DNA of 64,000 bases, from the NCBI RefSeq assembly GCF_006345805.1, contig NC_043000.1:9424001-9488000 (forward strand). The letters run 5' to 3'. Of this stretch, positions 1-56,208 are shown piece after piece. The notes under the pieces are model-generated. The model was not told where the DNA came from. It was given only the letters and a program-made list of their open reading frames with translations, and searched no databases. Positions within the stretch are counted from its first letter, which is position 1; each line of letters opens with the position of its first letter. Source of the stretch: Octopus sinensis. Its lineage: Eukaryota. The translations under genes were made by a program, and so were the position numbers.

Positions 1-1581
1 GCAATGTCAAAGGTAGGCTAACTGGGAAGATAGTTTTTGTATGTGGCAGATGCTCAGGAGCATTAACCTCCGAAAATCTGCAGAAAATAACTTCAGTCAC
101 TTTCCAAGGGGAAAAACTAGAAGTAGTTGATAGCTTCCATTATCTAGGTGACCAAGTCAGTAGTGGGGGTGGGTGCGCTGAAAGTGTAACTGCTAGAATA
201 AGAATAGCCTGGGCAAAGTTTAGGGAGCTCTTACCTCTGCTGGTGACTAAAGGCCTCTCGCTCAGAGTAAAAAGCAGACTGTATGATGCGTGTGTACGAA
301 CAGCCATGCTACATGGCAGTGAAACATGGGCCGTGACTGCTGAGGACATGCGTAAGCTCGTGAGGAATGTGTAATGTCAGTGTACATACTCGACAGAGCG
401 TTAGCACCTTGAGAGAAATGTTGTACCTAAGAAGCATCAGTTGTGGTGTGCAGGAGAGACGATTGCGCTGGTATGGTCATGTGGCGAGAATGGATGAAGA
501 TAGGTGTGTGAGAAAGTGCCAATCCTTAGCAGTTGAGGGAACCCGTGGAAGAGGTAGACCCAGGAAAACCTGGGACGAGGTGGTGAAGCACGACCTTCGA
601 ACTCTAGGCCTCACTGAGGAAATGACCAGCGACCGAGACCTTTGGAAATATTCTGTACGTGAGAAGACCAGGCAGGACAAGTGAGCCCAGCCCACTTATG
701 AATGCCTTTCCTCCCTTGGACACAAAGACCTGTTGAGGCAAGCGAAGTCGATATAGAACCTCATCCGACGACAGGCACCCATGCCAACCCCCTTTGCTTG
801 CGGAGACATGTTGGGGCAAGCGAAATCGAAATCGAAGTCAAAATCGAATTGAACCAGCCAGGATCCCTGGTCTGGTGGTACGTAAAAAGCACTATCCGAC
901 TCGTGGCTGATGCCAGCGCCGCCTCCACTGGCTTCCGTGCCGGTGGCACGTAAAATACACCAATCTGACCGTATGACAGGCACCCATGCCAACCCTCTTG
1001 CTTGCGAAGACATGCTGGGGCAAGCGAAATCGAATTGAACCAGCCAGGTTCCCTGGTCTGGTGGTACGTAAAAAGCACTATCCGACTCGTGGCCGATGCC
1101 AGCGCCGCCTCCACTGGCTTCCGTGCTGGTGGCACGTAAAATACACCAATCTGACCGTACAACAGGCACCCATGCCAACCCCCTTTGCTTGCGGAGACAT
1201 GTTGGGGCAAGCGAAATCGAAATCGAAGTCAAAATCGAATTGAACCAGCCAGGATCCCTGGTCTGGTGGTACGTAAAAAGCACCATCCGACTCGTGCCGA
1301 TGCCAGCACCGCCTCGTCTGGCTTCCGTGCCGGTGGCACATAAAATACACCAATCCGACCGTGGCCGTTGCCAGCCTCGCCTGGCACCTGTGCAGGTGGC
1401 ACGTAAAAAGCACCCACTACACTCACAGAGTGGTTGGTGTTAGGAAGGGCATCCAGCTGTAGAAACACTGCCAGATAAGACTGGAGCCTGGTGCAGCCTT
1501 CTGGCTTCCCAGATCCCCGGTCGAACCGTCCAACCCATGCTAGCATGGAGAACGGACGTTAAACGATGATGATGATGATGA
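1..1581 (+). mobile_element. RTE-clade LINE 3' portion: RT C-terminus, repeat-rich 3' UTR and (GAT)n tail
   Basis: Translates to EVVDSFHYLGDQVSSGGGC..RIRIAWAKFRELLPLL..LHGSETWAV and RRLRWYGHVARM..RGRGRPRKTW (stop at 684). A short deletion/frameshift near 367 relative to the copy at 33559-34705. Ends GGACGTTAAACGATGATGAT. Confidence 0.9.
771..1360 (+). repeat. Three tandem ~190-205 bp units in the RTE 3' UTR
   Basis: ACAGGCACCCATGCCAACCC...AAATACACCAAT restarts near 771, 976 and 1162. Confidence 0.9.
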
Positions 1582-2792: not shown

Positions 2793-2953
2793 CAGGAGTG
2801 GCTGTGTGGTAAGTAGCTAGTTTACCAAAGACATGGTTCTGGGTTCAGTCCCACTGCATAGCACCTTGGGTAAGTGTCTGCTACTATAGCGTCGGGCCGA
2901 CCAAAGCCTTGTGAGTGGATTAGGTAGATGGAAGCTGAAAGATGCCTGTCATA

Positions 2954-3020
<67 letters not shown>

Positions 3021-3172
3021 CTATGTATATGTTTGTGTGTCTGTGTTTGTCTCCCCCCAACATCGCTTGACAACCAATGCTGGTGTGTTTATGTCCCCGT
3101 TACTAAGCGGTTCAGCAAAAGAGACCAATAGAATAAGTACTAGGCTTACAAAGAATAAGTTATGGGGTCGAT
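2793..3172 (+). mobile_element. tRNA-derived SINE, family A (AGGAGTGGCTGTGTGGTAAG head), 3'-truncated
   Basis: A-box-like TGGCTGTGTGG and B-box-like GGTTCAGTCC; internal TA/TG microsatellite; matches copies at 6681, 28013 and 57618. Confidence 0.8.
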
Positions 3173-3845
3173 ATATATATATATAGTGTATATATATTTT
3201 CATTAGTGTTAATGTATATGTTTTCATTCATGTGCATTAACAACAGCATCAGAGTGCATTAGTTCTTATTTCTAGCAATGTAGGTGCTACCCACACTCTT
3301 CTGACAAGTTTAACACTTTTGATACCAACCCACCTGAGCCTGCTACCTGGTTCTATGATATAAACTTTCCATTCAACCCTTTAGCATTCAAATTATTCTG
3401 TCAAATGTAATGCTTATTTATTCCCTTTATTTTGAATTAATCAGGGATTATCTTGCAGCTTTCAAATTTCAGTAATGTTACTGCTTATTACTCTTTGCTC
3501 TCTTTTACTTGTTTCAGTCATTTGACTGCAGCCATGCTGGAGCACCGCCTTTAGTCAAGCAAATCGACCCCATAACTTTGGTCTACAAACTTAATTTGTT
3601 CCTGAAAGCTGTTCATCACCCAAAATGTTTATAAATCATAACTATTTCCCACGAAAGGGGCATGTGCACTGAGTGAAAGCTGGACAGTAACTGACATTCT
3701 CCCTCTGATACATCATAACTGTTATTGCTAGCTTGTGTGTTCATTACTTAAGACACTGTTCCTCACCTGAGTGTCATTTCTTGTTCAAAAAATCGTTCAT
3801 TAATCAATTTGTTTATAATGAGAAATGTTCATAAACTGAGGTATA

Positions 3846-4009
3846 AGAGGGATGACCACTAAGTGGACATCCATTATGTTTGAGGTAGATCCCATATGGT
3901 CTGACCACGCATTTGCTGAATTTTCTTAAGATCAATCTTTTCTTAGTGGTCAGACCATATGGGATCTACCTCTAGCATAAAAGATATCCACTTAGTTATC
4001 ATCCCTTTT
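3846..4009. mobile_element. Hairpin/MITE-like foldback
   Basis: AGGGGATGACCACTAAGTGGA..GAGGTAGATCCCATATGGTCTGACCAC is the reverse complement of GTGGTCAGACCATATGGGATCTACCTC..TCCACTTAGTTATCATCCCCT; ~60 bp arms. Confidence 0.75.
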
Positions 4010-4147
4010 ATATGTATGTAATATAATTTTTTTGAATCTTCAAATTTTTCAATATGCTAGGCCACTGGTTTTAAATTGATATTAATCAAATTAATATTCA
4101 ACTTTTCACCTCTATTATTTAAATTTATATATATATATATATATTAT

Positions 4148-4182
<35 letters not shown>

Positions 4183-4438
4183 CATCATCATCGTTTAACG
4201 TCCGTTTTTCGCGCTAGCACGGGTTGGACGGTTCAACCGGGGTCTGGGAAGCCAGGGGCTGCACCAGACTCCAGTCTGATACACACACACACATATAGCA
4301 AAATTGCACTTCATATTCAAGGCTCTGATGAAGCTATAGGATGTTATTCAGGCACTCAACTATGTGCCAACAGCATCTTATAGTAGAAGCAGCAGTGAGT
4401 TAATGAGGTTCATAATATATATATATATATATATATAT

Positions 4439-4493
<55 letters not shown>

Positions 4494-4494
4494 C

Positions 4495-4717
4495 ATATAT
4501 TAAAAATGGAGGAGGCTGGTTTATGGGATTACCTCAGGTTTAGCTTTATGGTGTATCATCAAATCCAAAAAAACCAGTTGGCCCATGGTTTCTTTTTTTA
4601 AGAGGTCATGGACCAACAGGGTTTTGGGATCTGACGATACACCATAAAGCTAAACGTTTTATGGATGGAAACCTGAGGTAATCCCATAAACCAGCCTTCC
4701 CCGTTTTTAATATATTC
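4495..4717. repeat. Foldback inverted repeat carrying a hammerhead in its right arm
   Basis: AGGCTGGTTTATGGGATTACCTCAGGTTT/AAACCTGAGGTAATCCCATAAACCAGCCT and GTTTAGCTTTATGGTGTATC/GATACACCATAAAGCTAAAC. Confidence 0.85.
4625..4686 (+). ncRNA. Type I hammerhead ribozyme motif
   Basis: Stem I TGGGAT/ATCCCA; core CTGACGA; stem II CCATAAAGC/GTTTTATGG; GAAA; stem III ACCT-G-AGGT; GUA cleavage triplet. Confidence 0.8.
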
Positions 4718-4794
4718 TGCTCTACATCTTAGAGTACACTTCTTCTTTCAGATTTATGTTTTCTACAAACGATGTGTGTGTGTGTATGTGTATG

Positions 4795-4829
<35 letters not shown>

Positions 4830-5113
4830 TAGAAAAAAAAACACATTTTATCAATTCAAAATGAAAAATTAAATTACACCATCTAGAAAGTTACATATAA
4901 TAGAAAGATTAAATATAAGATAAAAAATATAACGATGATTAAGTAATGTGGTTAATTAATTAATTGATAAAAGGTGGGTTTTTTCTAATTTATATATATA
5001 TTTTATATTTTGTGAAATTTGATTTAGTATTTCTAAATTGAATTTTTCCCTGTAAGTTTGGAATAATATTCCCTCATATTATTATTATTATTATCATTAT
5101 TTTATATATATAA

Positions 5114-5367
5114 AAAGGGTAAAGACCCCCTTCGGTCATGAATGACCATGGGATTGCACCTAGAAAGTTACCCTCCTAGACACAAGTCCGGGCAAGGTTG
5201 TTTATGGAAGACCAGCAGTCGCCCATGCATACCAGCCTCCCCTCTCCACGCCACCAGTGTTATCCAAGGGAAAGACAAAGGTCGATACAGCTTGGCACCA
5301 GTGACGTCGCAACTCATTTCTACAGCTGAGTGAACTGGAGCAATGTGAAATAAAGTGCTTTGCTCAA
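5114..5367 (-). mobile_element. CORE-like SINE, family B variant, 5'-truncated
   Basis: Minus strand TTGAGCAAAGCACTTTATTTCACATTGCTCCAGTTCACTCAGCTG resembles the CORE domain; same family at 11995-12276 and 26393-26737. Confidence 0.7.
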
Positions 5368-6680
5368 TATTTTATATATATATATATATATAGATATAGA
5401 GAGAGAGAGAGAGTATATTTTGCATGTTCAAATAGATGTATGACTGCTGCTGTTACGTATAGAACTCCTTGTAGATTATCATTTTCCAGTCTGCTTCCAG
5501 TATAGGGGTTAAGTAACTCCTATACTAAGTAGTATTAGTAGTTATGAAATACAGGGCAAATGTCAGAAAAATTAAGGTAAACACATCATCATATTATTAG
5601 TTGCTATATAAGTTGTTTGGAACCCTGCACTGGATGTTCCAAGTGCATTTGGATACGTACCCGGAGCAGATCCTCAGGGAAAACTTTATTGAATTAATTA
5701 CAGAGAAGTATATGTATATATGTGTGTGTATATATATGTATGTATGTATGTATGTTTGTCCCCTACCACTACTTGACAACTGCTGTTGGTTTGTTTACAT
5801 CCCCATCATAAGATAGCAGTTCAGCAAAAGAGACCAATAATGTATATACCAAGCTTTAAAAAATAAAATTCATTCGACTAAAACCCTTCTAGGTGGTGCC
5901 CCTCCTAGAAGGTCACAGTCCAGTAACTGAAGCAAGTAAAAGATGAAGGATACACACACACACACACATGCGTGCGTAAGCGCATACACTCATGTATATA
6001 AAAGTGTAAAATGGTTGACATGAGGAAGAGCATCCAGCTATAGGCATCAAAGCATGATGCAGTCCTCAGACCTATCAGAACTTGTTGAACCCTCTACTCA
6101 TGACGACATGGAACGTGCTTGTTAAATGATGATGTGTGTGTGTGTGTGTATAGGTGCCAGATGAAAGTTGTAACTTCCACTGAGTTAATTGGGTCACTTT
6201 GTGAGATATGATCTCTGTGAACTACCATATCTTTTCAAATCCAAAATCGACTTGCAAGCCCTTTCACACGCTACACACATTCAATCAATCTGGTCTGCAA
6301 GAAAGGATGTTGCATACTATTGATTTTTCATGCGACTTTATATAGTTGACATACCCAACCTTAGAATGAAGCACGCTGCCATACATTTCACACCTCCAGC
6401 CCTTTATATTCTAATCATGTTCTCAGTGACAGCCCTTCTGAATCCAATGATTTAGCCTTTCATGCTCAAGACAATCCTCTTCAAAAGTTTCACAACTTTC
6501 CCCTATACACAACCTTTCCGCCATTCATCTCTTTCCTAAGCCATCTCTTCCCATTTCTTTGCATCAATTAGCAGTTCTTTCAGGTTGCCTTTTTATGCAA
6601 TCTTTGTACCATTTTCACAGTTTGTATGAGGGCACTTTCCACTGCACAGCTCACCAGAGAACAGCTACTTTGGAATCTTA

Positions 6681-15355: not shown

Positions 15356-15792
15356 TTAACGTCCGCTTTCCATGCTAGCATGGGTTGGACGGTTCAACTG
15401 GGGTCTGGGGAGCCCGAAGGCTGCACCAGGCCAGTCAGATCTGGCAGTGTTTCTACAGCTGGATGCCCTTCCTAACGCCAACCACTCTGAGAGTGTAGTG
15501 GGTGATTTTATGTGCCACCGACACAGGTGCCAGACGAGGCTGGTGAACGGCCACGCTCGGATGGTGTTTTTATGTGCCACCGACACAGGTGCCAGACGAG
15601 GCTGGCGAACGGCCACGCTTGGATGGTGTTTTTATGTGCCACCGACACAGGTGCCAGACGAGGCTGGCGAACGGCCACGCTTGGATGGTGTTTTTATGTG
15701 CCACCGACACAGGTGCCAGACGAGGCTGACGAACGGCCACGATCGGATGGTGTTTCTTACGTGCCCACAGCACGGAGGCCAGTCGATGCGGA
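15321..15792 (-). mobile_element. RTE 3' UTR fragment with four ~61 bp tandem units
   Basis: (ATC)n tail, then TTTTATGTGCCACCGACACAGGTGCCAGACGAGGCTG..CCACG repeated four times across 15507-15750. Confidence 0.85.
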
Positions 15793-15844
15793 GTGATTCT
15801 TGTTGCTTATTTTGAGTGTATATATATATATATATATATATATA

Positions 15845-16960
15845 CTTGGTAGTAGTAGCCAAATAGTGAGCGGTGTTCCACAAGGCACCTTTTGGGGACC
15901 ACTACTGTTCACAATGGCCCTCTCAGACATGCCCTCAGCCACGCAGAGAGCCACGACCACAAGTTATGCAGATGATACAAAAGTTTCACAGGCAATACAG
16001 AACCCTGAGGACACTAAACGCCTGCAATGTGAGCTGGACAAAATATACAAGTGGGCTGAAAAAAATAGCATGCAGTTTAATGCTGAAAAGTTTCAAGCTT
16101 TAAGCTATCAGCATGCAAAACTAAATGCAATACCCAATAAATACACTGGACCTGGAGGGATTGCAATCCCAGAGGCACAATCAGTGCGAGACCTGGGTAT
16201 TTACATGAGTGATGATGCAACCTTTCATGTGCATGTTGCTAAATTGGCAATGAAATGTAGGCGGCTGACCGGATGGATTCTTAGAGCTTTTAGAACAAGA
16301 GACCAAGAAACCATGATGGTCCTCTGGAGGACACTTGTCCTAAGCCACTTTGACTATTGCTCTCAGCTATGGTCACCATCCAGTGTCAAGTTAATCACAG
16401 AACTTGAGGCGATCCAACGAAGCTACACGAAGAAGATAGCCTCTGTGCAGCATATAAGCTACTGGGAAAGACTCAAGAGACTAAGACTCTATTCCTTAGA
16501 GCGTAGGCGAGAAAGATATGCCATAATATACATCTGGAAGATCCTAGAAGTTCTTGTCCCAAACTTTGGCATCGAGAGTTACACAAATGCTAGAACTGGG
16601 TGCCACTGCATGGTGCCAAGGACTCCAGATTTGCCATCAAGATTTAGGACAAGATACTGTGATAACCTGGGCTTCAGATGCCCACAGCTCTTCAATATCC
16701 TCCCGAAGAACCTGAGAGACCTGCATGGGGTGGATGCAGATGTCTTTATAATAAAACTGGATCTCTTCCTGTCAGGTGTCCCAGAAGAACCAACTTCACG
16801 GCAGAAGGTGCAGATGAGGGCAGCTGCATCGAACTCTCTCATGCACCAAATAGCAGTTGCTAAAAAGCATTTGTGTAGTAAAATCATGTAGCAACACAAA
16901 ATGGCAGTGCCCCAGCATGGCCATAGCTCGTGAGCTGAAACTAGATAAAATAAAATAAAA
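15845..16960 (+). mobile_element. CR1/L2-superfamily LINE, 5'-truncated; open RT frame to 16891 plus short 3' UTR
   Basis: SGVPQGT..GPLLF, YADDTK, VRDLGI, YCSQLWSP, SYWERLKRLRLYSLERRRER; ends in (TAAAA)n. Confidence 0.9.
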
Positions 16961-16990: not shown

Positions 16991-19900
16991 AGAAGAATTA
17001 AAACCTGATTTTACTGAGTTAAATTAAATTATTTACGCTTCTGCTAGGGCAATTAAAACCAGCTGTATGCCCCCGAAGAAACAAAGAAAACCAAACCTGG
17101 GAAGAAATCAAACCTGGAGAAGTAAAATTGAAAAAGAGATTGAATTTATGAGAGGGGAAATATCAATATTAAATGAACTAATATGTGGAAATGATGTAAG
17201 ATCCAGAACAGGAAGAAAGATGAAGAGAAAATTTGGATCCTCACCAAGAGAAGAACTGATATCAATAAAAGAAACGCTGAAACAAAAAGTCCAAGCAAAA
17301 ACCCAAAGAATACGAAGATTTGAGAAGAGAAACAAGTTTTACAAGCAAAATAAGCTGTTCACATCCAATGCCAAAAAATTCTACAGAGAAATAGGGAAGG
17401 AGAAAGTAACCGTTAAAGACCCCCCTCCCATGGAAGAAGTTCAAAACTTTTGGAAAAGGATTTGGAGTGACAAGAAGATGTACAACATAAATGCAGACTG
17501 GATTATACAAACTGAAGGATCCTACCAAAATTTACAACAACAAGCATGGGAAGACATCACAATAGCAGACCTAAGAAAGGCACTCACGAAGGCCCATAAT
17601 TGGAAATCCCCCGGTAAAGATAGGGTGCCGAATTTCTTGCTCGCATTGCTCCCATGCGTACATGGTAAGCTAGTTCAGCTGCTCAATGGAATTATGAGAG
17701 ACCTAAAGAAAACACCTGAATGGTTAGCAAGTGGTATTACTTACCTACTCCCAAAGAATAACGAAACCAACCTTCCAAAAAACTATCGGCCTATAACCTG
17801 TCTATCCACCACGTATAAAATCCTAACATCTATCCTGGCGGAGAAAACATATGCATTCATGGAGAAGAACGATATTTTCCCCATTGAACAAAAAGGGTGC
17901 CTCCGAGGCTCTTACGGATGCAAAGATCAACTGCTAATTAATCGTATGATCCTTGAGAACTGTCACAACAACCGCAGAAATCTCAGCTCTGCATGGATTG
18001 ACTATAAAAAGGCCTTCGACAGTATACCGCATCCATGGATCTTGAGATCGCTGGACATCTTCAAAATTTCCCCTGTGATTTCAAACTTCCCGAAGCACAA
18101 TATGTCGTTGTGGAATACGAATCTCCAATTATACCACTCTAATGGAGTACTTGCCTCAGAAAATATAAACATCAACTGTGGAATTTTTCAAGGTGACTCA
18201 CTTTCACCTTTAATATTCTGCATAGCCCTAATACCCCTTACAAGTGAATTAAACAGAACAGGGTATGGGTATAAAATTGCCAATAAAAAAATAAGCCATC
18301 TATTTTATATGGATGACTTAAAACTTTATGGTAAAGACAATAATGAACTTGAAGGCCTATTGCGCACTGTGAAAGCATTCAGCGATGACATTGGGATGGA
18401 GTTTGGACTTGAGAAGTGTGCCAAGGCCACTTTCCAGAAAGGGAAAGTGAAGACCACAACTTCAGTCATGTTAGATGTTGACACAGTCATAAGAGAGCTT
18501 GAGCAAGAACAAACATACAAATATTTAGGGATAAATGAAGGCTCTGGTATTCAGCATGCAAGCATGAAAGAGAAGATCAGGAAGGAATGTTATAGGAGAG
18601 TTCGTGCAGTCCTGAAATCTGAACTAAATGCACGTAACAAGGTGTTAGCTATAAATTCCTTAGCAGTTCCAGTTGTTACTTATAGCTACAATGTGTTGAA
18701 CTGGAATATGAGTGAAGTAAAGAATATAGATAGGAAAATACGCAAGCTGCTGAGTTGTAATAGGATGCACCACCCAAAGGCAGACGTAGATCGCCTTTAC
18801 CTTCCCAGAGCCCAAGGAGGTCGAGGCCTGATCCAATTTGAACTAGCTTACAAAACAACCACAATCGGACTGGCCAAATATCTCGAAATAACGAATGACT
18901 GGATGCTAAAGCTCGTGGAAAATCACGAGAGACGAAAGAAGCTTCATTCTATCATAAAGGAAAGCAAAAAATTTGCTATTGATCTCGTGCAGGATACCCA
19001 AACTGAACAACCCGAGGGAAGTACGGCAACTATTGTTGCAAAGAAGGTGAAAATAATGGCAACGAAAAAAGCGCACGAGCAATTGGCTGATAGGTGGGAG
19101 GAGAAACCTCTGCACGGCAAGTATGTGACCCGCAGCAAACAAGCTGATGTTGACCAGAAGCAAACCCATCAGTGGCTACGGAGCTCAGGGCTAAAAGCAG
19201 AGAGCGAAGGTTTCATCCTGGCTGCTCAAGAACAAAGCCTATTAACCCGGAACTACCAGGCCAATGTGATGAAAAATGGAGCAGACCCAAAATGCTGATT
19301 CTGCAACGACATGATTGAAACAGTGGACCACCTAATCTCTGGATGTAAAGTCTTAGCACCAGTGGAGTATAAATTAAGACATGACAGAGTTGGCCAATAC
19401 CTCCACTGCCTAATAAGTCGGCATTACAATATCAAAACTGCCGACAAGTGGTATAATCACCACCCTCAGGCTGTAACTGAAGGAGAAAATGTAACCATTC
19501 TGTGGGACTTTCCAGTACATACAGACCGAATCATCAAGGCCAATAAACCAGATATTGTTGTGAAAGACCAAAACAATAAAGTTTGCTTATTGATCGACAT
19601 GAGCATCCCCTGTGATCATAATATCTCAGCGAAAGAGTTTGACAAGCTCAGAAAATATAAAGACTTACTCATTGAAATTGAGAAAATGTGGCATCTGAAG
19701 GCGGTTACAATACCAGTGATCGTAGGAGCACTAGGAATGATCAAGAAGGGAACCGAAAATTATATTAGAATGATCCCTGGCTTACCATCCCTGCAAGAAG
19801 TGCAAAAGATTGTCTTAACTGGTACATCACACGTATTGAGAAGAGCATTGTCGATGTGAGAACTGTTGCTGCTCATGTATTTTAATTTAACTTAAAAAAA

Positions 19901-28938: not shown

Positions 28939-28942
<4 letters not shown>

Positions 28943-29393
28943 TCATCATCATCATCATCGTCGTTTAACGTCCGTTCTCCATGCTAGCATGGGTTGGACG
29001 GTTCGACCGGGGTTTCTGGGAAACAAGAAGGCTGCACCAGGCTCCAGTCTAATTTGGCAATGTTTCTACAGCTGGATGCCCTTCCTAACGCAACCACTCC
29101 GTGAGTGTAGTGGGTGCTTTTTACGTGCCACCTGCACAGGTGCCAGGCGGGGCTGGCAACGGCCACGGTCAGATTGGTGTATTTTGTGCCACCGGCACGG
29201 AAGCCAGTCGAGGCGGTGCTGGCATCGGCCACGAGTCGGATAGTGCTTTTACGTACCACCAGACCAGGGATCCTGGCTGGTTCAATTCGATTTCGATTTC
29301 GATTTCGCTCCCAACATGTCTTCACAAGCAAAGGGGGTTGGCAAGGGTGCCTGTCGTACGGTCGCATTGGAGTTTTTACGTGCCACGGCCACG
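28939..29393 (-). mobile_element. RTE 3' UTR fragment
   Basis: Reverse complement of ~1160-1581; flanked by (TA)n. Confidence 0.85.
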
Positions 29394-29442
29394 ATTATAT
29401 ATATATGTATATACATATGTATATATATATGTATATATATAT

Positions 29443-29495
<53 letters not shown>

Positions 29496-29506
29496 TATAT
29501 AGAAGG

Positions 29507-29556
29507 AGCTTCTACAGGACTAGTACTGTTTCATTCAGGAGAATCTTCAGGAAGCT
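29507..29556 (-). ncRNA. Type I hammerhead ribozyme motif at the left end of the palindrome
   Basis: Minus strand AGCTTC-CTGAAGA-TTCTCCTGAAT-GAAA-CAG tactagtc CTG-TA-GAAGCT. Confidence 0.72.
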
Positions 29557-29901
29557 ATTTAACAAGAATTGTATTAGCATTTATACATTTAGGCAGGTTT
29601 AAAGAGTGGTGGTGGGGGACTTTTTGGGGGTAGGCATAGCGCAAAATATCATACTTGGGGGAGTGGTCAAGGAGTCAGTGGTAAGTTAGGTGAAAGAAAG
29701 ATAAATAAAAAAAAAAAAATAAAAAATAAAAAATAGAAAAATAAAAAAAATATATATAAAAAAATTAAAAAAATAAAAAAAATAAAATGTGTGCACATAC
29801 ATACATAACACATATACATACACACACACATACGTACACATGTGTGCCTATACATACCTACACATACACACATACACATACATATATATATATATATATA
29901 T

Positions 29902-29933
<32 letters not shown>

Positions 29934-30440
29934 CTATATATATTATATATATATACACAATCCAATACAGGCCCATTCCCTAATTTTAATTTTATTATCT
30001 TCATTTATTACTTTTGTTATCTTTGATCGCTAGAGCTAAGGATCCTGGCGATGGCAGCATGTCCAAATTGTCTGTCTACTAGAAGGCAAGTACTCGTTCC
30101 CGCACGCACACTCATTAGCACGTACATACACCCTTCGTACACTCATACACATACACGTACGCACGCGTTATATTCATACATACCAACATCTACATACGTT
30201 CACGTATATACACATACGTACTCGTACCTACAGATTCATGTCTACACTTTAGGAGGCTAGTCTATATATATACCCATAAATACATATATATTAATATATA
30301 TACATATATATATATACACATATACACATACACACACACACACACATATATATACTCCTACATACAGATACATACCTATATATATATATATATATATACC
30401 CACACATACATGTACACATGATTATATATACATACATATA

Positions 30441-30473
<33 letters not shown>

Positions 30474-30697
30474 CATACATACATACACACACACCCATAT
30501 AATACACACACATATACACATATATATACATACACAAACATATATACCACATATATATATATATACATATATACACACATACATACACACACCTACATAC
30601 ATGTACCACAAACACATACATACGTAACATACATACATACATCCATACATCCATACTTACATGCACTTATACGCATACACACACCCCCATCTATAGA

Positions 30698-30745
<48 letters not shown>

Positions 30746-30825
30746 AACTCACACATACATATACAAATATACGCCCACACATACATACGTGTGGGCGTAT
30801 ATTTGTATATGTATGTGTGAGTGTG

Positions 30826-30891
<66 letters not shown>

Positions 30892-31136
30892 TCACAAGAG
30901 TATATATATATATATAGATGGGGGTGTGTGTATGCGTATAAGTGCATGTAAGTATGGATGTATGGATGTATGTATGTATGTTTACGTATGTATGTGTTTG
31001 TGTGTACATGTATGTAGGTGTGTGTATGTATGTGTTATATATGTATATATATATATATGTGTGTATATATGTTTGTGTGGTATATTATGTGTATGTATGT
31101 GTGTGTATATATGGTGTGTGTGTGTATGTATGTATG

Positions 31137-31174
<38 letters not shown>

Positions 31175-31297
31175 TTATGGTATATATATATATATGTGTA
31201 CATGTATGTGTGGTATATATATATATATATATATAAGGTATGTATCTGTATGTAGGAGTATATATATGTGTGTGTGTGTGTGTATATGTATATGTGT

Positions 31298-31329
<32 letters not shown>

Positions 31330-31656
31330 TGTATATTTATTGGTGTATATATATAGACTAGCCTCCTAAAGTGTAGACATGAATCTGTAGGTACGAGTAC
31401 ATATGTGTATATACGTGAACGTATGTAGATGTTTGTATGTATGAATATAACGCGTGCGTACGTGTATGTGTATGAGTGTACGAATGGGTGTATGTACGTG
31501 CTAATGAGTGTGCGTGCGGGAACGAGTACTTGCCTTCTAGTAACAGACAATTTGGACATGCTGCCATCGCCAGGATCCTTAGCTCTAGCGATCAAAGATA
31601 ACAAAGTAATAAATGAAGATAATAAAATTAAAATTAGGAATGGGCCTGTATTGGAT

Positions 31657-31746
<90 letters not shown>

Positions 31747-32071
31747 TATGTATGTGTATGTGTGTATGTGTAGGTATGTATAGGCACACAGTGTACGTAT
31801 GTGTGTGTGTATGTATATGTGTTTATGTATGTATGTGCACACATTTTATTTTTTTTATTTTTTTTATTTTTTTATATATATTTTTTTTATTTTTCTATTT
31901 TTATTTTTTTTTTTTTTTTTATTTATCTATTCTTTCACCTAACTTACCACTGACTCCTTGACCACTCCCCCAAGTATGATATTTTGCGCTATGCCTACCC
32001 CCAAAAAAGTCCCCACCACCACTCTTTAAACCTGCCTAAATGTATAAATGCTAATACAATTCTTGTTAAAT

Positions 32072-32122
32072 AGCTTCCTGAAGATTTCTCCTGAATGAAA
32101 CAGTACTAGTCCTGTAGAAGCT
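32072..32122 (+). ncRNA. Type I hammerhead ribozyme motif at the right end of the palindrome
   Basis: Stem I AGCTTC/GAAGCT; CTGAAGA; stem II TTC/GAA; GAAA; stem III ACAG/CTGT with ACTAGT palindrome in the loop; GUA triplet. Confidence 0.78.
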
Positions 32123-32208
32123 CCTTCTATATAATAAATTAATTTTACTCTGCTATGTATTGAGTACCTTACTTACTGTGGTTAACCCCGGATCAACCCG
32201 GGACCTAC

Positions 32209-32246
<38 letters not shown>

Positions 32247-32951
32247 ATTGTTGGCGATTTTTTTCCTCTGTCTTCCTTTTCTCTTAGACTTTCCGCCATC
32301 TCCTGTCTCTGATGAAGAGCTTTGTTCAAGAGTGAAACTACCTTTCTTTTCTTCCCTGAGCATCCTGCTAATACTTTGCATGTACCACATCCTCATGTTG
32401 TTTTTTCTTGTTGTGTTTTTCTTTTTTTTTTTTATATTTATTATACAACACACATACCTACATACATTCACACACACACACATATACACATATGTGATGG
32501 ACTTCCATGCAGTTTCTGCTGCCTACCAATTCACTCACAAGTCATTGGTCAGCCCAGACTATAGAGAAGACACTTGCCCAAATTGCTGCACTGTGGGACT
32601 GAACCCAAAACCATGTGACATAATTGATTTCAAACTTATTTCATAGAATTTTTTAATGACATGACAAATTGTCTACACTTATTATCTTGTCTTAGTAGGA
32701 CTTGGTGGGAGAAGGTTGGCAGGTGTAATTAGCAAAATGAACTAATTACACTTGAACTTCTTAATTACCGTAACAATTCATTAATTGGATAAACATACTA
32801 ATTGATAGTGTATTTGTATTGTTGATGCATAAATAAAAAAAAATTAATAAAAATCAAAAGTATAAATTAAAAATATGCTTAATTATCAGTTATTCAGTTA
32901 GGTGCGTTATACGTATATGTATGTGTGTGTGTATATATATATATATATATT

Positions 32952-34706
32952 ATCATCATCATCATCATCATCATCGTTTAACGTCCGCTTTCATGCTAGC
33001 ATGGGTTGGACGGTTCAACTGGGGTCTGGCAAGCCCGAAGGCTGCACAGGCAGTCAGATCTGCAGTGTTTCTACAGCTTGATGCCCTTCCTAACGCCACC
33101 CACTCCGAGAGTGTAGTGGGTGATTTTATGTGCTACCGACACAGTGCCAGACGAGGCTGGCAGACGGCCACGCTCGATGGTGTTTTTATGTGCCAACCGA
33201 CACAGGTGCAGAGGAGGCTGGCTGACGGCCACGCTCGGATGGTGTTTTCTTATGTGTCACCGACACAGGTGCCAGACGGCCACGCTCGGATGGTGTTTGT
33301 TACATGCCCTTAGCACGGAGGCCAGTCGTTGCGGTACTGGCTACGGTCACGTTCGGATGGTTTTCTTATGTGCCACCGGCACTGGTACCACAAGGATACA
33401 AATTCCATTGATGTTCATCTATTTTGATTTGGTTCGATTTGATTTGATTTGATTTGATTCTCACTTGCCTCAACAGGTCTTCACAAGTGTCACAAGAAGG
33501 AAGGTATGCACAGGTGGACTGACTACATCCCAGGTAGGGGCCACGGATTATGGCTTCACTAGTCTTGCCGGGTCTTCTCACGCACAGCATACTTCCATAG
33601 GTCTCGGTCTCTAGTCATTTCCATGGTGAGACCTAACGTCCGAAGGTCGTGCTTCACCACCTCGTCCCAGATTTTCCCGGGTCTACCTCTTCCACGGGTT
33701 CCCTCAACTGCTAGGGATTGGCACTTTCTCACACACCTATCTTCATCCATTCTCGCCACATGACCATACCAGCGCAATCGTCTCTCTTGCACACCACAAC
33801 TGATGCTTCTTAGGTACAACATTTCTCTCAAGGTACTAACGCTCTGTCGAGTAAGTACACTGACATTACACATCCATCGGAGCATACTGGCTTCGTTCCT
33901 CACGAGCTTACGCATGTCCTCAGCAGTCACGGCCCATGTTTCACTGCCATGTAGCATAGCTGTTCGTACACATGCATCATACAGTCTGCCTTTTACTCTG
34001 AGCGAGAGGCCTTTAGTCACCAGCAGAGGTAAGAGCTCCCTAAACTTTGCCCAGGCTATTCTTATTCTAGCAGTTACACTTTCAGCGCACCCACCCCCAC
34101 TACTGACTTGGTCACCTAGATAGCGGAAGCTATCAACTACTTCTAGTTTTTCCCCCGGAAAGTGACGGAAGTTGTTTTCTGCAGATTTTCAGAGGTCAAT
34201 GCTCCAGAGCATCTGCCACATACAAAAACTATCTTCCCAGTTAGCCTACCTTTGACATTGCTGCACCTCTTATGTGTCCATAGCTTACACTGGGTACATC
34301 TTATAGAGTTTCTACCTACACCTTTTCTACAGATCGAGCAGGGCCATCTTCCTGAGGATATTTGTGGATTGTCTACCTTTCTACTTATTAGTACTTTGGT
34401 TTTAGCTAGGTTGACTCTAAGGCCCCTCGATTCTAAACCCTCCTTCCACACCTGGAACTTCTCCTCCAGTTCTGATAGTGACTCAGCAATTAGAGCGAGG
34501 TCGTCAGCATAGAGGAGCTCCCAGGGGCAACCTGTCTTGAATTCCTCCACAATTGCCTGGAGGACTATGATAAATAGGAGGGGGCTGAGTACTGAACCCT
34601 GGTGGACCCCAACCTCTACTTTGAATTCTTCTGTGTACATGTTGCCAACTCTAACCTTACTTACGGCATCTCTGTACATGGCTTGCACAGCCCTCACCAG
34701 CCATTC
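32952..34706 (-). mobile_element. RTE-clade LINE, 5'-truncated (RT coding 33559-34706, one frameshift near 34150)
   Basis: VGVHQGSVLSPLLFIIV..LYADDLAL..KTKV, Cys-rich insert, RRLRWYGHV; 3' UTR with ~60 bp units and (GAT)n tail. Confidence 0.92.
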
Positions 34707-34726
34707 ATATATATATATATATATAT

Positions 34727-35628
34727 ACAGAGTGTGGGTGAATATATTGTTGTCTACATTACGCAAAATGTAAATAACACTGACATCTCGATTTAACAGA
34801 TACATTTACCAAAATTACATGAAAATATTTTGAATTACTAAAGTGTAAATTTATTCAATAAAATCACCATTGACTTCAACAAGAGCCTCCAGATGACCTC
34901 AAAGTCTCCTGCAACTATTCTGGACAGTCTCCTTGTTTAAGTTGGTGAATGCTGCCATAATCCTTACCTTCTGTTCATCTTTGGTGTTAGAAGAGGTTTT
35001 ATTGGTCTCTTGCTCAACTGTACCCCACACATAATAATGAAAGGAGTTGTAGTCTGTGGAGTTAGGTGGCCAGATGTTAGGGATGATGTGGTCACAGAAA
35101 TTGTCTGACAGCCATGACTGGATTCTCCTGCTTGAGTGGCATGGTGCAGAGTCCTGTTGCTAGACATAGGGTGTTCCAGCAGCCATCCTCTTGGTCCAGG
35201 GCAGCACTACCTCCTCCATGCACTTGATGTAAGTCTCCATGTTGAGTCTGTGGTCATGTGGGAAGATCAATGGAGGCATAACATCGCCATCACTAGTGAT
35301 CACTCCAAACCCCATGATGTTGACTGGATGTTTCATTTTTATCACTCTCAGTACATCTTTTGGGTACACAGCATACACAGCCTCTTTTGAGTACACAGTT
35401 GTTCTGTATGTTCACCATCTTTTTGTATTGGAACTTCCAGCGTGAATGCCAAGCAGTACAGCATGTTGTTTCCAAATTTCTGGCAAAGTGAATTGCATCA
35501 TGGTGCTGTTTTTCACACAGACAGTGCCCAACTGAACCTACTATACTGGGTAGTCAACAAAATCAAAAATAAACAATGCGCATGCACAACGTAACAAATA
35601 TAAAATGGCAACAATTTACTCATTGCAT
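34727..35628 (-). mobile_element. Degenerate Tc1/mariner (maT/DD37D-like) transposon
   Basis: KHPVNIMGFGVITSDGDVMPPLIF..VLPW..QQDSAPCH-like remnants; imperfect terminal inverted ends (GGGTGAATATATTGTTG/CAACAATTTACTCA). Confidence 0.72.
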
Positions 35629-39638: not shown

Positions 39639-40914
39639 CAAGGATAGGACAAAATAATGGAAACACCTTAAAATTTTGAACAAATTTATTTTAATATGGG
39701 GTAGGACCACCTTTGGCAGTAATTACAGCTTGAATTCTACAAGGTATGGACTCATACAAAGTTTGAATTGTTTCTGAAGGAATTTTTGCCCATTCTTCAT
39801 CTAAAACAGTCTCCAGTTCTTGCAGTGATGATGGTGGAGGATATTGACTCCTTGTTTTTCTAAAATACACCATAAATGTTCAATAATACTGAGATCTAGA
39901 GACTGTGGCGGCCAGATAAGATGTTCAACTTCACTAGAATGTTCCTCGTGCCATTCAGTAACAACTTTAGCTGTGTGAATTGGTGCATTATCATCCTGAA
40001 AGATTGCGCTTCCCTCTGGAAACAGTTCCGCAACCATAGGATGAATTTGATCAGATAAAATGCTTAAATAGTCTTGACTACTAATTCTGCCATGAAGGGA
40101 AACCATTGGGCCAGCGGATTTCCAAGATATAGTCCCCACCCAGATCATCACAGATCCTCCTTCATGTTTAACAGTTGGAAGAAGGCAGTCTGGGTCAAAT
40201 GCTTCTTTTGGCTGTCTCCACACGTATACTTGGCTGGTGGTCAGAAATAAGGTAAAGGATGACTTGTCTGAGAAAATTACATTCCTCCACTGCTCTAGGG
40301 ACCAATTCTGTAGGATTTTACTCCACTCTAAACGCTTTGCAATGTTTGTATTTGAAAGTAATGGTTTTCTGATTGCAGTCCTCCCATGAAATCCTACATT
40401 GTGCAGCTATCAGCGAACAGGTTTTGTGGAAATTGGGTTCTTGAGGTGGTCATTAAGCTCTGCAGTAATTTTGTGATCCTTTCTAACAATTCGTGTGAGA
40501 GTCTGATGGTCCCCATCTGAAAGTTTTGGTCTTCTTCCGGAGTTTTGTTTCGACAAGGAGGTTTTTCCCTCTTTGAGAAAAAGGGAAAAAACTCCTCGTC
40601 GAAAGGCTGTCATTATTTTCGAGACAGTACTTCTTGACACACTAAACATTTTGGCTGTTTTCATTATGCTAGCATACAAGCACCAACAATTTGACCTCTT
40701 TGAAAGTCAAGTAGATCTGTCATTTTAATGAATTTTTATTATCTTTTTCTGATGATGTCTGAAAAGAAACACCAAATTTAGCAAAACGTATTAAGCAACA
40801 CTAATAATAAATTAAAAAAAACATAAAAATAAACAAGCTTTTGACAGTTTTCTAGATATTTCAAAATTATGATGCCATGATGCTAGGTGTTTCCATTATT
40901 TTGTCCAACCTCTG
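39639..40914 (-). mobile_element. Tc1 (DD34E) transposon, full-length but frameshifted
   Basis: TIRs GGACAAAATAATGGAAACACCT/AGGTGTTTCCATTATTTTGTCC flanked by TA; HTH (VSRSTVSKI..GRRPKLS), PTVKHEGGSVMIW, FQDDNAPIH, WPPQSLDLSIIEHLW, IQAVITAKGGPTPY. Confidence 0.9.
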
Positions 40915-44715: not shown

Positions 44716-45121
44716 GATCAGAATCGAAATCGATCAATGGAAATCGATCAATGGAAATTGCAGATGTGTTACCAGTGCCGGTGGCATGTAAGAGAACTTT
44801 CCGTTTCGCGACCGTTGCCAGCACCGCCCCGTTTCGTGTCCGTTGCCAGCCTCGCCTGGCCCTCGTGCCGGTGGCACATAAAAAGCACCATCCGTTCGTG
44901 GCCGTTTGCCAGCTCTGTCTGGCACCAGTGCGGTGGCACGTAAAAAGCACCCACTACACTCACGGAGTGGTTGGCGTTAGGAAGGGCATCCAGCCGTAGA
45001 AACACTGCCAGATTTGACTGGGCCTGATGTAGCCTTCTGGCTTCACAGACCCCAGCAGAACCGTCCAACCCATGCTGGCATGGAAAACGGACGCTAAATG
45101 ATGATGATGATGATGATGATG
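44716..45121 (+). mobile_element. RTE 3' UTR fragment
   Basis: GTGGCACGTAAAAAGCACCCACTACAC..CATGGAAAACGGACGCTAAATGATGAT. Confidence 0.85.
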
Positions 45122-49781: not shown

Positions 49782-49825
<44 letters not shown>

Positions 49826-49837
49826 ATATGTATGTAT

Positions 49838-50006
49838 ATCATCATCATCATCATCATCGTTTAACGTCCGTTCTCCATGCTAGCATGGGTTGGACGGTTC
49901 GACCGGGGATCTGGGAAGCCAGAAGGCTGCACCAGGCTCCAGTCTTATCTGGCAGTGTTTCTACAGCTGGATGCCCTTCCTAACGCCAACCACTCCGTGA
50001 GTGTAG
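49838..50006 (-). mobile_element. RTE 3' end
   Basis: Near-identical to the reverse complement of 1415-1581. Confidence 0.85.
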
Positions 50007-50035
50007 TTCTATATATATATATATGTATGTATATA

Positions 50036-51633
50036 TCATCATCATCGTTTAATGTCCGTTTTCCGCGCTAGCACGAGTTGGACGGTTCGACCGGGGTCTG
50101 GGAAGCCAGGGGCTGCACCAGGCTCCAGTCTGATCTGGCAGAGTTTCTACAGCTGGATGCCCTTCCTAACGCCAACCACTCCGCGAGTGTAGTGGGTGCT
50201 TTTTACGTGCCACCTGCACAGGTGCCAGGGGGGTCCGGCATTGGCCACGATCGGTTGGAGCTTTTAACGTGCCACCGGCACGGAAGCCGGCCACCGCGGA
50301 GCTGGCAACAGCCACATTCGGATGGTGCTTTTTATGTGCCACCGGCACAGAAGCCAGTCGGGGTGGCGCTGGCATCGGCCACTTTCGGATGGTGCTTTTT
50401 ATGTGCCACCGGCACAGGTATCACAACTACTATTTCCATTGATATCTATTTCGATGTTCATGTTCATGTACTTGACTCAACAGGTCTCCTCAAGCACAGC
50501 GGGACGTTCTGGGATCCTGGGTACTTTGAGTGGGCAGGGGGCTATGCGGAACTGGTGCAGGAAGCAGCCCGGGTCTTTGCAGTCACAGCATATCTCCAGA
50601 GATCTCGGTCCTTCGCCATTGCCTCAGTGAGGCCCAACGCTCTGAGGTCATGCTTGACTACCTCATCCCATGTCTTCCTGGGTCTACCTCTCCCCCTGAT
50701 ACCTTCAACTGTTTGGGAGTGGCACTTCTTCACACATCTCTCCTCATCCATCCGCAGTACATGACCATACCATCGCAAGCGTCGCTCTTGCACACCACAT
50801 CTGATGCTTCTTATGTCCAGCATTTCTCTCAGGGTGCTTACACTCTGTCGTGCGTGCACACTGACATTACACATCCAGCAGATCATGCTAGCTTCATTTC
50901 TTTCAAGTCTACGCATGTCCTCTGCAGTCACAGCCCAGTTTCACTACCGTGAAGCATGGCAGTTTGCACACATGCATCATACAATCTACCTTTCACTCTG
51001 AGTGAGAGACCCTTTGTTGCCAGTAGGGGTAGGAGCTTTCTGAACTTTGCCCAGGCTATTCGTATTCTAGTGGTGATACTCTCTGAGCATCCACCTCCAC
51101 TACTAACTTGGTCACCCAGGTAGCGGAAACTATCAACTACTTCTAGTTTCTCCCCCTGGAGTGTGATGGAATCTGTTTTCTGAGTGTCTGTGGTGTCTAT
51201 TGTCCCTGTGCATCTGCCGCACATGAAAGCTATCTTATCAGTTAATTTCCCTTTGATGTTGCTGCACCTCTTATGCGTCCATAGCTTACATTGGGTGCAT
51301 CTTATGGAGTTTCTACCTACACCTTTCCTACAGATCGAGCAGGTGGCCCTGCTCGAGGGTGTGTGTGCTGAGTTCGCCTTTCTGCTTACTATAACTTTGG
51401 TCTTTGCTACATTTACTCTAAGGCCCTTTGATTCTAACCCTTGCTTCCACACTCGAAATTTCTTTTCTAGTTCCGGTAGTGATTCTGCTATGAGAGCCAG
51501 GTCATCAGCATAGAGGAGCTCCCAGGGGCAACCTGTTTTGAATTCCTCTGTTATTGCCTGGAGGACTATGATGAATGAAAGGGGACTGAGGGCTGAGCCT
51601 TGGTGTACACCTACTTCTACCAGGAATTCTTCA
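50036..51633 (-). mobile_element. RTE-clade LINE, 5'-truncated (second subfamily)
   Basis: VGVHQGSALSP, LYADDLAL, Cys-rich insert, FRYLGD, RRLRWYGHV; frameshift near 50935. Confidence 0.92.
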
Positions 51634-51647
51634 TTATATATATATAA

Positions 51648-52024
51648 AGACTGAGACCTCTGAGATATGCTGTGACTGTGAAGACCCGACAAATGAAGTG
51701 AGTTCATGGCTCACAGGACAGCCTGGATCGTAGAGTGATTCGCTGTTCTTGAGGAGACCTATTGAGTTAAGTACATCAATACCAACATCAAAATGAAGAT
51801 CAAATGGAAATTGTAGGTAAGATACCCACGCCAGTGGCACGTAAAAAGCACCCACTACACTCATGGAGTGGTTGGCGTTCGGAAGGGCATCCAGCTGTAC
51901 AAACACTGCTAGATCAGACTGGAGCCTGGCACAGCCTCCTAGCTTCCCAGACCCTGGTCGAACCAACCAACCCATACTAGTATGGAAAACGGACATTAAA
52001 CGATGAAAATGATGATGATGATGA
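51648..52024 (+). mobile_element. RTE 3' end, head-to-head with the preceding copy
   Basis: GACTGAGACCTCTGAGATATGCTGTGACTG..ATGGAAAACGGACATTAAACGATG. Confidence 0.8.
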
Positions 52025-54106: not shown

Positions 54107-54190
<84 letters not shown>

Positions 54191-54386
54191 GAAGGAGCTT
54201 CTACAGGACTAGTACTGTTTCATTCAAGAGAAATCTTCATATATGTATATATCTATCTATATATATATATATATATCTATATATATATATATAGATATAT
54301 ATATATATATATATATAGTTGGAATTTACCAAAAAACATAAGATGAAGACAGGTGTATTAGTTTAATGCCCAGGAAAGTGAGAAAG

Positions 54387-56002: not shown

Positions 56003-56041
<39 letters not shown>

Positions 56042-56087
56042 GGTCCCGGGTTGATTCGGGGTTAACCACAGTAAATAAGGTACTCAA

Positions 56088-56140
56088 GAGCTTCCTGAAG
56101 ATTTCTCTTGAATGAAACAGTTCTAGTCCTGTAGAAGCTC
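56088..56140 (+). ncRNA. Type I hammerhead ribozyme motif (same family as 32072)
   Basis: GAGCTTC-CTGAAGA-TTTCTCTTGAAT-GAAA-CAG ttctagtc CTG-TA-GAAGCTC; 7 bp stem I. A truncated inverted copy lies at 54186-54239. Confidence 0.78.
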
Positions 56141-56149
56141 CTTCTATAT

Positions 56150-56208
<59 letters not shown>

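What the first reader, a model, noticed from the sequence alone, without database searches (positions are those of the whole stretch)
29490..32208. 2.65 kb palindrome with an outward-facing hammerhead at each end
Seen: two ~1.3 kb arms separated by only 8 nt. Unique blocks are almost identical while microsatellite lengths differ. Each end carries the same hammerhead, so a transcript of either strand would fold into a long dsRNA rod with a self-cleaving site near its 3' end. Only the right arm continues into a ~70 bp tail (TTGAGTACCTTAC..CCCGGGACCTAC). Inference: a non-coding Penelope-derived element made by self-primed fold-back reverse transcription, and a possible substrate for ADAR editing or Dicer, or a DNA cruciform.
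Basis: partly seen in the sequence, partly recalled or inferred. Interest (0 to 1): 0.8.

Follow-up and report, generated by a model that had tools for sequence, protein, structure and literature searches.

The report
Penelope retrotransposon inserted as a palindrome
The palindrome is an ordinary head-to-head insertion of a young Penelope-like retrotransposon, but its sister copies carry what are likely RNA-editing marks shared by both arms, which suggests that both arms are copied from one RNA molecule and gives a handle on how these elements insert.

Summary
The 2,650-bp palindrome is in the assembly: arms 29490-30780 and 30789-32139, 8-nt spacer, hammerhead-like motif at each outer end, 69-nt tail on the right only. 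It is not a separate non-coding element. Each arm is the last 1.3 kb of the 3' UTR of a young, high-copy, 5.6-kb autonomous Penelope-like element with Hydra-clade protein motifs, inserted in (TA)n. An inverted truncated copy with a one-sided tail is the described architecture of these elements; 34 of 40 copies checked have it, and this centre is unique in the genome. The sister copies add something not found in my literature searches. All 26 two-armed insertions picked without regard to the tail have exactly one tail. Either arm can be longer, yet 14 of 43 are nearly symmetric (1.6 expected). One copy has 73 A-to-G changes among 87 private ones, mostly shared by both arms; another is a double palindrome with an edited antisense arm. 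Best reading: both cut target ends prime on one sense RNA (about 0.55); self-primed fold-back is the rival (0.3). Raw reads and transcription of this locus were not shown.

The parts
29396..29489 (.). (TA)n target run, left side
   Evidence: every family end examined abuts (TA)n
29490..30780 (-). Left arm: inverted, 5'-truncated copy of the element's 3' UTR, ending at the family's tail-less terminus (end A)
   Evidence: matches positions about 4330-5606 of the natural full-length copy L132; same terminus in sister loci
29507..29556 (-). Type I hammerhead-like motif, left copy (one T short in stem II)
30781..30788 (-). 8-nt spacer; it is the templated continuation of the left, tail-less arm
   Evidence: contigs of public runs run through it from the left arm and go on with family sequence; junction unique in the genome
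30789..32139 (+). Right arm: 5'-truncated copy of the 3' UTR in sense orientation, about half alternating purine-pyrimidine repeats
32072..32122 (+). Type I hammerhead-like motif; predicted cut after 32116 (GUA); palindromic ACUAGU in loop III
   Evidence: activity not tested
32140..32208 (+). 69-nt tail (end B): the sequence that follows the 5' pseudo-LTR and precedes the ORF start in the full-length copy
   Evidence: L132 reads through the tail into the ORF, ATG about 40 nt after it
32209..32230 (.). (TA)n target run, right side; first ATAT shared with the element
56035..56163 (.). Miniature insertion of the same family: inverted tail piece joined to a tail-less hammerhead piece; the two arms do not overlap
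54171..54239 (-). Short tail-less 3' fragment of the same family in (TA)n

Best explanation
The palindrome is one insertion of a young Penelope-like retrotransposon, two 5'-truncated copies of its 3' end joined head to head in a (TA)n run, likely made when both cut ends of the target primed reverse transcription on the same RNA molecule. Shown: the parent is a 5.6-kb element (pseudo-LTR with hammerhead motif, tail, RT plus GIY-YIG-type ORF, 3.25-kb microsatellite-rich 3' UTR); it has two fixed 3' ends 69 nt apart, both TA-like and joined to (TA)n; two-armed insertions use one of each. Inferred: the GIY-YIG endonuclease cuts both strands of (TA)n; one end primes at the tail end, the other just after the hammerhead; the downstream enzyme displaces the first cDNA; both stop early, often near the same point (for example a broken RNA 5' end); the two cDNA 3' ends are joined by a template jump or end-joining and second strands are filled in. 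The window copy is a passive product with no function shown. Such insertions can be transcribed into double-stranded RNA, and A-to-I-edited RNA of the family has likely been re-inserted (sister loci L081, L131, L183). Identity about 0.95; mechanism about 0.55.
For: Family and parent. One tail per two-armed insertion: 8 of 8 picked on the RT region and 18 of 18 picked on a mid-arm block; 0.5^26 = 1.5e-8 if ends were chosen independently. Tail-less arm longer by more than 65 nt in 9 of 43, tail arm longer in 20; tail-less single-arm insertions exist (L132, L137, L143, L148), so that site can start a first strand. Non-overlapping mini-insertions at window 56035-56163 and L083. One template molecule: 38 private substitutions shared by both arms; in L081, 34 of 43 A-to-G sites covered by both arms are in both and no sibling carries the pattern among 40 scored of 456 candidates. 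Sense template: the L081 and L131 changes are A-to-G on the sense strand. In vitro, a Poseidon-clade element nicks and extends both target strands and starts at two RNA sites that bracket the tail (PMC11167929).
Against: The excess of near-symmetric junctions (14 of 43), several centred on self-complementary TA runs, is just what self-primed fold-back predicts. Tail-less-arm-longer cases could come from later inversion of the spacer between arms, or from trimming of a tail. Shared variants fit copying of one arm from the other, or gene conversion, equally well. In L183 both halves share a junction whose unedited parent was not found; if that junction arose during reverse transcription, the second half must be a fold-back copy. 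Junction mapping in microsatellites is imprecise, and the window's spacer was set by hand. No raw reads were examined.
Confidence: 0.6

Rival explanations
1. Same element, but the second arm is made by self-primed fold-back: one cDNA turns back on itself and is copied towards its start; tail trimming or later inversion of the spacer explains the cases where the tail-less arm is longer.
For: Near-symmetric excess, 10 of 43 within 20 nt against 0.6 expected; zero-spacer centres on TA or AT runs in L072, L074, L082, L085; shared private variants; L183; self-priming was proposed for rotifer Penelope palindromes (PMC3846280).
Against: The window's spacer continues the tail-less arm and offers no base pair for a hairpin primer; 9 of 43 and a further 4 of 18 have a clearly longer tail-less arm, up to 4.5 kb; tail-less single-arm and non-overlapping insertions; the antisense template that PMC3846280 said self-priming would need is not what L081 and L131 show.
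Confidence: 0.3
2. The palindrome at this locus is an assembly artefact of fold-back (chimeric) long reads.
For: 31 of 38 gap events between the arms are single-base, as in noisy long-read consensus; no contig of four public runs was seen to span the centre among the 32 of 1,247 pieces shown.
Against: A chimera would mirror the tail and the right flank; here the left arm stops at the family's fixed tail-less end and has its own flank. 34 of 40 tail-bearing copies show the same design with different centres. The arms differ by a CpG-type G-to-A change at 31401.
Confidence: 0.04
3. The palindrome is a non-autonomous unit (fold-back element or retrozyme-like RNA) that spreads as such, or has a host function as a dsRNA source.
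For: L183 suggests that a read-through of one palindromic insertion was re-inserted once.
Against: This centre occurs once in 2.7 Gb; all 43 junctions mapped are at different places; no tandem hammerhead units; the window copy has no private A-to-G change.
Confidence: 0.05

Closest known systems
Hydra clade of C-terminal EN+ Penelope-like elements (PMC8557442), nearest named family Hydra-1_Obim of Octopus bimaculoides
   Same: RWK-like, DKT, CxCX5C linker, no CCHH, CxxC and CxH around the catalytic E and N, hammerhead with CTGAAGA core, (TA)n target; by eye the RT motifs line up with the Hydra-1_Obim rows of the supplement.
   Different: 5.6 kb with a 3.25-kb microsatellite-rich 3' UTR against under 3 kb (2,507 bp for Hydra-1_Obim); different hammerhead stems; a pseudo-LTR copy is present here (L132); tail 69 nt against the 30-40 bp described. 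No alignment or tree with the published proteins was run.
Typical Penelope-like insertion: 5'-truncated copy, adjacent inverted 5'-truncated copy, tail at one end (PMC8557442 Fig. 2; PMC3846280)
   Same: Exactly this anatomy.
   Different: Arms are unusually long and near-equal here; the one-tail rule, the symmetry excess and the shared edits were not in the passages I read.
PAc, Poseidon-clade element of Anolis, in vitro (PMC11167929)
   Same: Two RT start sites bracketing the tail; cleavage and extension of both strands at AT-rich DNA; hammerhead in the pseudo-LTR.
   Different: Other clade; the PAc tail lies inside the ORF, here it lies before the ATG; inverted products were not addressed in the parts I read.
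LINE-1 twin priming (PMC11702581, passages)
   Same: Both target ends prime on one RNA and give a 5' inversion.
   Different: L1 arms abut with 1-10 bp overlap or deletion; here both primers sit at fixed sites 69 nt apart and the arms overlap for kilobases.
Non-LTR retrozymes (10.64898/2026.07.22.740005)
   Same: Non-coding, type I hammerhead, Penelope-related.
   Different: Retrozymes are head-to-tail tandem units with a hammerhead in each; this is head-to-head and a truncation of an autonomous element.

Membership tests
EN+ Penelope-like element | Single ORF with RT and C-terminal GIY-YIG endonuclease | tested here: met
   In sister copies, not in the truncated window copy: L132 (frameshifted) and L137 (539 aa open) have YRDD and LVY...YIG; model pLDDT 81 matches RT folds including TERT; Pfam itself does not detect either domain, one homologue has a weak GIY-YIG hit, E 0.006
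EN+ Penelope-like element | Partial tandem forming a pseudo-LTR | tested here: met
   L132: 101-nt 3' end repeated upstream of tail and ORF, 100% identical
EN+ Penelope-like element | Inverted 5'-truncated copy next to the 5' end; tail at one end only | tested here: met
   34 of 40 tail-selected copies; 26 of 26 two-armed copies selected without the tail have one tail
EN+ Penelope-like element | Hammerhead motif in the pseudo-LTR | tested here: met
   Core and stems I-III present; 73 identical and 13 one-letter variants among 97 motifs matched in held loci
EN+ Penelope-like element | Retained spliceosomal intron | not tested
   No RNA data
Hydra clade | RWK motif, DKG changed to DKT | tested here: met
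   RIRWRSF (R for K) and SDKTKN in L132 (definition)
Hydra clade | CxCX5C linker; no CCHH between GIY and YIG; CxxC and CxH around E and N | tested here: met
   CNCHDKTTC; one cysteine between LVY and YIG; CDLC..E..N..CMH
Hydra clade | Insertion into (TA)n | tested here: met
   All ends listed
Hydra clade | Generally short (under 3 kb) | tested here: not met
   5,606 nt with a 3,254-nt 3' UTR; given as a tendency, not a diagnostic, in PMC8557442
Hydra clade | Placement in the RT phylogeny | not tested
   Reference proteins were seen only as text in a supplement
Type I hammerhead ribozyme | CUGANGA, GAAA, NUH core with three stems | tested here: met
   Stem I 6 bp, stem II 3 bp, stem III 4 bp, GUA triplet; -7.4 kcal/mol, not the minimum-energy fold of the right copy
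Type I hammerhead ribozyme | G10.1-C11.1 pair; match to an Rfam hammerhead model | tested here: not met
   U opposite U; no hammerhead family at E<=10
Type I hammerhead ribozyme | Self-cleavage | not testable with these tools
   Loop III could dimerise (-15.2 kcal/mol), as proposed for metazoan PLE hammerheads (PMC4209133)
Non-LTR retrozyme | Head-to-tail tandem units, each with a hammerhead | tested here: not met
   Head-to-head pair; definition
Non-autonomous fold-back element or MITE | Copies share the same internal centre and both termini | tested here: not met
   Centre unique; centres differ among 43 insertions
ADAR hyper-edited template (sister loci) | Clustered, strand-specific A-to-G with 5' U preference and 5' G depletion | tested here: met
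   L081: 73 of 87, 16 of 16 in a unique block, 0 of 481 A columns upstream; L183: 47 of 49, 5' U enriched (P 0.002), 5' G 0 of 47 versus 13 of 230 (P 0.13, not significant)

The most novel reading that the evidence does not exclude
Penelope-like elements build their inverted arms by twin priming at two fixed sites on a single sense RNA, and in this genome the resulting palindromes are transcribed into ADAR-hyperedited duplexes that the element can write back into DNA, so the genome holds a fossil record of A-to-I editing and of second-generation palindromes.
Probability: 0.45. Interest if true: 0.75.

Novelty: new member of a known kind. Interest (0 to 1): 0.5.

Why it matters
The locus itself is an ordinary product of a known class of retroelement. 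The family matters because how Penelope-like elements make tails and inverted repeats is stated as open in the papers read (PMC8557442, PMC11167929, PMC3846280). A young family with thousands of near-identical copies, two fixed ends and molecule-specific editing marks lets the competing models (twin priming, self-priming, sense or antisense template) be tested by counting alone. If most of these insertions are near-perfect kilobase inverted repeats, the family would also be a large source of double-stranded RNA; octopus has the strongest hyper-editing signal and a very high share of duplex-forming loci in PMC5625713, and the host here looks like an octopus (inferred, not verified).

Tried and rejected
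Rfam: no family at gathering score in the window, no hammerhead at E<=10. Pfam and PDB sequence searches do not recognise the element's protein. Neptune or Nematis clade was my first guess from memory; dropped after the linker and endonuclease motifs matched the Hydra description. Public runs: no RNA holder listed; contigs laid on the centre neither span nor exclude the junction, so the read-level artefact test is open. Host gene: no host domain among 84 of 274 non-repeat open frames scanned; this does not exclude an intron location. BLAST end points were too rough for junction offsets and were replaced by arm-to-arm pairing; junction microhomology was not scored systematically. A sense-edited motif search found nothing; the antisense control found L183. 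No unedited parent of the L183 junction. A-to-G counts in microsatellite columns are noisy and balanced by G-to-A in several loci (L078, L089, L093, L098) and were not taken as editing; L088 (8 A-to-G, 7 in one arm only) was left undecided. Screens of 58 short loci (partly overlapping earlier ones) and 20 further loci found no new hyper-edited copy. Earlier findings: none for this genome. Literature searches showed no paper on twin priming in Penelope-like elements or on A-to-I-edited copies fixed in a genome; the library lacks most subscription journals.

Full report
Observation. The arms align over their whole length around an 8-nt spacer at 30781-30788: left 29490-30780, right 30789-32139, 2,650 bp in all, with 1,265 matches, 10 substitutions and 38 gap events, 31 of one base. 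Each outer end holds CTGAAGA ... GAAA ... GTA between AGCTTC and GAAGCT, at 32072-32122 (+) and 29556-29507 (-). Only the right arm goes on into a 69-nt tail, 32140-32208. Both ends meet (TA)n.

What it is. The window lies at G000:C4:9424001-9488000 in a 2.72-Gb genome; the host looks like an octopus, which I infer from recalled repeat types and the nearest named family, without a test. The last 286 nt of the right arm have 2,533 first-look candidates in the genome; the 40 scored are 98-100% identical. A mid-arm block has 1,174 candidates and an RT block 213, a 5'-truncation gradient. The longest copies run, about 3.2 kb upstream of the end, into an ORF. L132 is a natural full-length copy: a 101-nt repeat of the 3' end (pseudo-LTR with the hammerhead), the tail, an ATG about 40 nt later, a frameshifted ORF, a 3,254-nt 3' UTR that is 65% alternating purine-pyrimidine runs, and a tail-less 3' end; 5,606 nt in all. 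The window arms match its positions of about 4,320-5,606. The 539-aa open frame of L137 has 1,613 homologues at E<=1e-10 among 8,000 scored, 39-56% identical in the 120 listed. Its model (pLDDT 81) matches retron, DRT, group II intron and telomerase RT structures. Pfam recognises neither domain. The motifs RWR, DKT, YRDD, CxCX5C, no CCHH, and CxxC..E..N..CxH fit the Hydra clade as defined in PMC8557442. That paper's supplement lists Hydra-1_Obim (2,507 bp, (TA)n target) with other hammerhead stems, so this is another, longer family. An older subfamily (ORF 95-97%, UTR about 80%) is also present.

The architecture is the known one. PMC8557442 describes an inverted 5'-truncated copy adjacent to the 5' end and a tail at one end; PMC3846280 shows the same in rotifers; PMC4209133 notes hammerhead pairs on opposite strands 100-700 bp apart. 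Of the 40 tail-bearing copies (window included), 34 have an inverted arm within 10 kb and 6 do not. The window's centre occurs once in the genome, so the palindrome does not spread as a unit. An artefact is unlikely: a fold-back read would mirror the tail and right flank, whereas the left arm stops at the family's fixed tail-less end and has its own flank. I could not test this with reads; public contigs laid on the centre stop at the spacer on either side in the 32 of 1,247 pieces shown, which is expected with or without the junction.

Rules seen across sister insertions. There are two 3' ends, A (tail-less) and B (tail), both TA-like at the junction. In the tail-selected set the inverted arm ends at A in 35 of 35 insertions. 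Among loci selected without the tail, 8 of 8 two-armed insertions in 20 RT-selected loci (12 had one end in view or were interrupted; one A end runs about 12 nt long) and 18 of 18 in 20 mid-arm-selected loci (2 single-armed) are A+B; chance under independent choice 1.5e-8. In 43 mapped junctions (35 + 8), 14 are symmetric within 65 nt (1.6 expected, at most 8 in 20,000 shuffles), the tail arm is longer in 20 and the tail-less arm in 9, by up to 4.5 kb (the window's spacer was entered by hand). In the window the spacer continues the tail-less arm. Tail-less single-arm insertions exist, and two miniature insertions have arms that do not overlap at all, one at window 56035-56163. Over 17,805 compared columns, 38 private substitutions are shared by both arms and 41 are in one arm.

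Editing marks. Of 108 arms, 83 under 2.5% divergence were kept. In unique columns only L081 (18 of 19 private changes A-to-G) and L131 (5 of 9) stand out, and no arm has more than 2 T-to-C. With microsatellite columns included, L081 has 73 A-to-G of 87, confined to UTR positions 2,811-4,840, none in 481 A columns upstream, 16 of 16 in a unique block; 34 of 43 sites covered by both arms are in both; no sibling shares the pattern among 40 scored of 456 candidates. A control search for antisense editing found L183, a double palindrome: tail and unedited arm, arm with 47 T-to-C of 49 changes, its mirror with 40 of the same sites, unedited arm, A end. Its half-unit reads like a transcript through an earlier palindrome whose antisense arm was edited (5' U enriched, P 0.002). 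Against the simple rod reading: the sense arm has 0 edits in 221 A columns, and no parent with that junction is in the assembly, so a switch from an unedited sense RNA to an edited antisense RNA is possible. Hyper-edited copies are rare: one strong and one moderate case among about 69 insertions not chosen for it. The window copy has none.

Mechanism. PMC11167929 found that a Poseidon-clade protein nicks and extends both strands at AT-rich DNA and starts at two RNA sites that bracket the tail. Taken with the one-tail rule, offsets of both signs, A-only and non-overlapping insertions, and edits shared by both arms, the simplest reading is that both target ends prime on one sense RNA, at A and at B, and that the two cDNAs are joined head to head. 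The cut, the displacement and the joining step are inferred. Self-primed fold-back explains the symmetry excess and the shared variants as well, and perhaps L183, but needs tail trimming or spacer inversion for about a third of the asymmetric cases. I put these at about 0.55 and 0.3.

The hammerhead and the rod. The motif has the core and three short stems but U opposite U at 10.1-11.1, no Rfam match and no unusual stability. Loop III is self-complementary (-15.2 kcal/mol as a dimer), like the poorly active metazoan PLE hammerheads; PAc's needs protein and is dispensable for insertion in vitro. In a transcript through the palindrome it would be paired with its mirror (-97.7 against -7.4 kcal/mol). 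Transcription, editing, dicing or cruciform formation at this locus are untested. PMC5625713 reports heavy RNA editing of Penelope in lizard and the strongest hyper-editing in octopus, so RNA-level editing of such repeats is known.

Papers seen: PMC8557442 passages and supplement rows; PMC11167929 and PMC4209133 parts 1-2 of 4, supplements not read (Figs S1-S2 of the former may bear on the two start sites); 10.64898/2026.07.22.740005 part 1 of 5, supplements closed; PMC3846280, PMC11702581, PMC4866542, PMC2873906, PMC5625713 passages. Searches listed no report of twin priming in Penelope-like elements or of A-to-I-edited copies fixed in genomic DNA; older subscription papers on Penelope structure are outside the library.

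Verdict. A real but ordinary insertion, a new long-UTR member of the Hydra clade. The value lies in the family-level evidence on mechanism and in the fossil editing. Interest 0.5.

Noticed in passing
L081 (G000:C15:995068-1005067): 73 A-to-G among 87 private substitutions, in the 3' UTR only and mostly shared by both arms; likely an ADAR-hyperedited RNA written into the genome.
   Followed up: yes
L183:2279-5314 (G000:C5:125213500-125221500): Double palindrome with 47 T-to-C changes on the inner arms only; likely a re-inserted transcript of an earlier palindrome. The unedited outer arms and the missing parent are unexplained.
   Followed up: partly
L131: 9 private A-to-G changes, 6 of them clustered and seen in both arms; moderate editing candidate.
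   Followed up: partly
L132 (G000:C2:166847350-166857349): Natural full-length copy with pseudo-LTR, tail and frameshifted ORF; the only one seen among 20 RT-bearing loci.
   Followed up: yes
window 30887-30900: The right arm has about 17 extra nt inside a TA run that mirror 30812-30825, a small local hairpin absent from the left arm; error or secondary fold-back.
   Followed up: no
window 63355-63999 (-): 215-aa open frame with a GIY-YIG domain (E 3e-05) running off the window end; possibly another Penelope-like family.
   Followed up: no
window 17028-19859 (+): Long non-LTR retrotransposon ORF with RVT_1 (E 4e-28), one stop at 19296.
   Followed up: no
window 15797-16891 (+): 3' part of another LINE RT (RVT_1, E 2e-09).
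   Followed up: no
window 39804-40706 (-): Tc1-like transposase pieces (DDE_3, HTH_Tnp_Tc3_2).
   Followed up: no
window 840-1362, 15501-15765, 28941-29395, 32950-33400, 44833-44951, 49819-50417: Abundant (CAT)n-headed repeat with internal 61-67-nt or 186-nt tandem units, next to RT fragments at 33559-34805 and 50542-51710 (-); one copy flanks the palindrome on the left.
   Followed up: no
L088 6631-9702; L192 9476-9679; L138 7105-7871 (element-oriented coordinates): New insertions directly beside older ones of the same family in the TA target; L138 has two tandem tail pieces about 660 bp apart.
   Followed up: no
L095: Array with a period of about 477 bp, over 99% identical, arranged as a large inverted repeat upstream of the element.
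   Followed up: no
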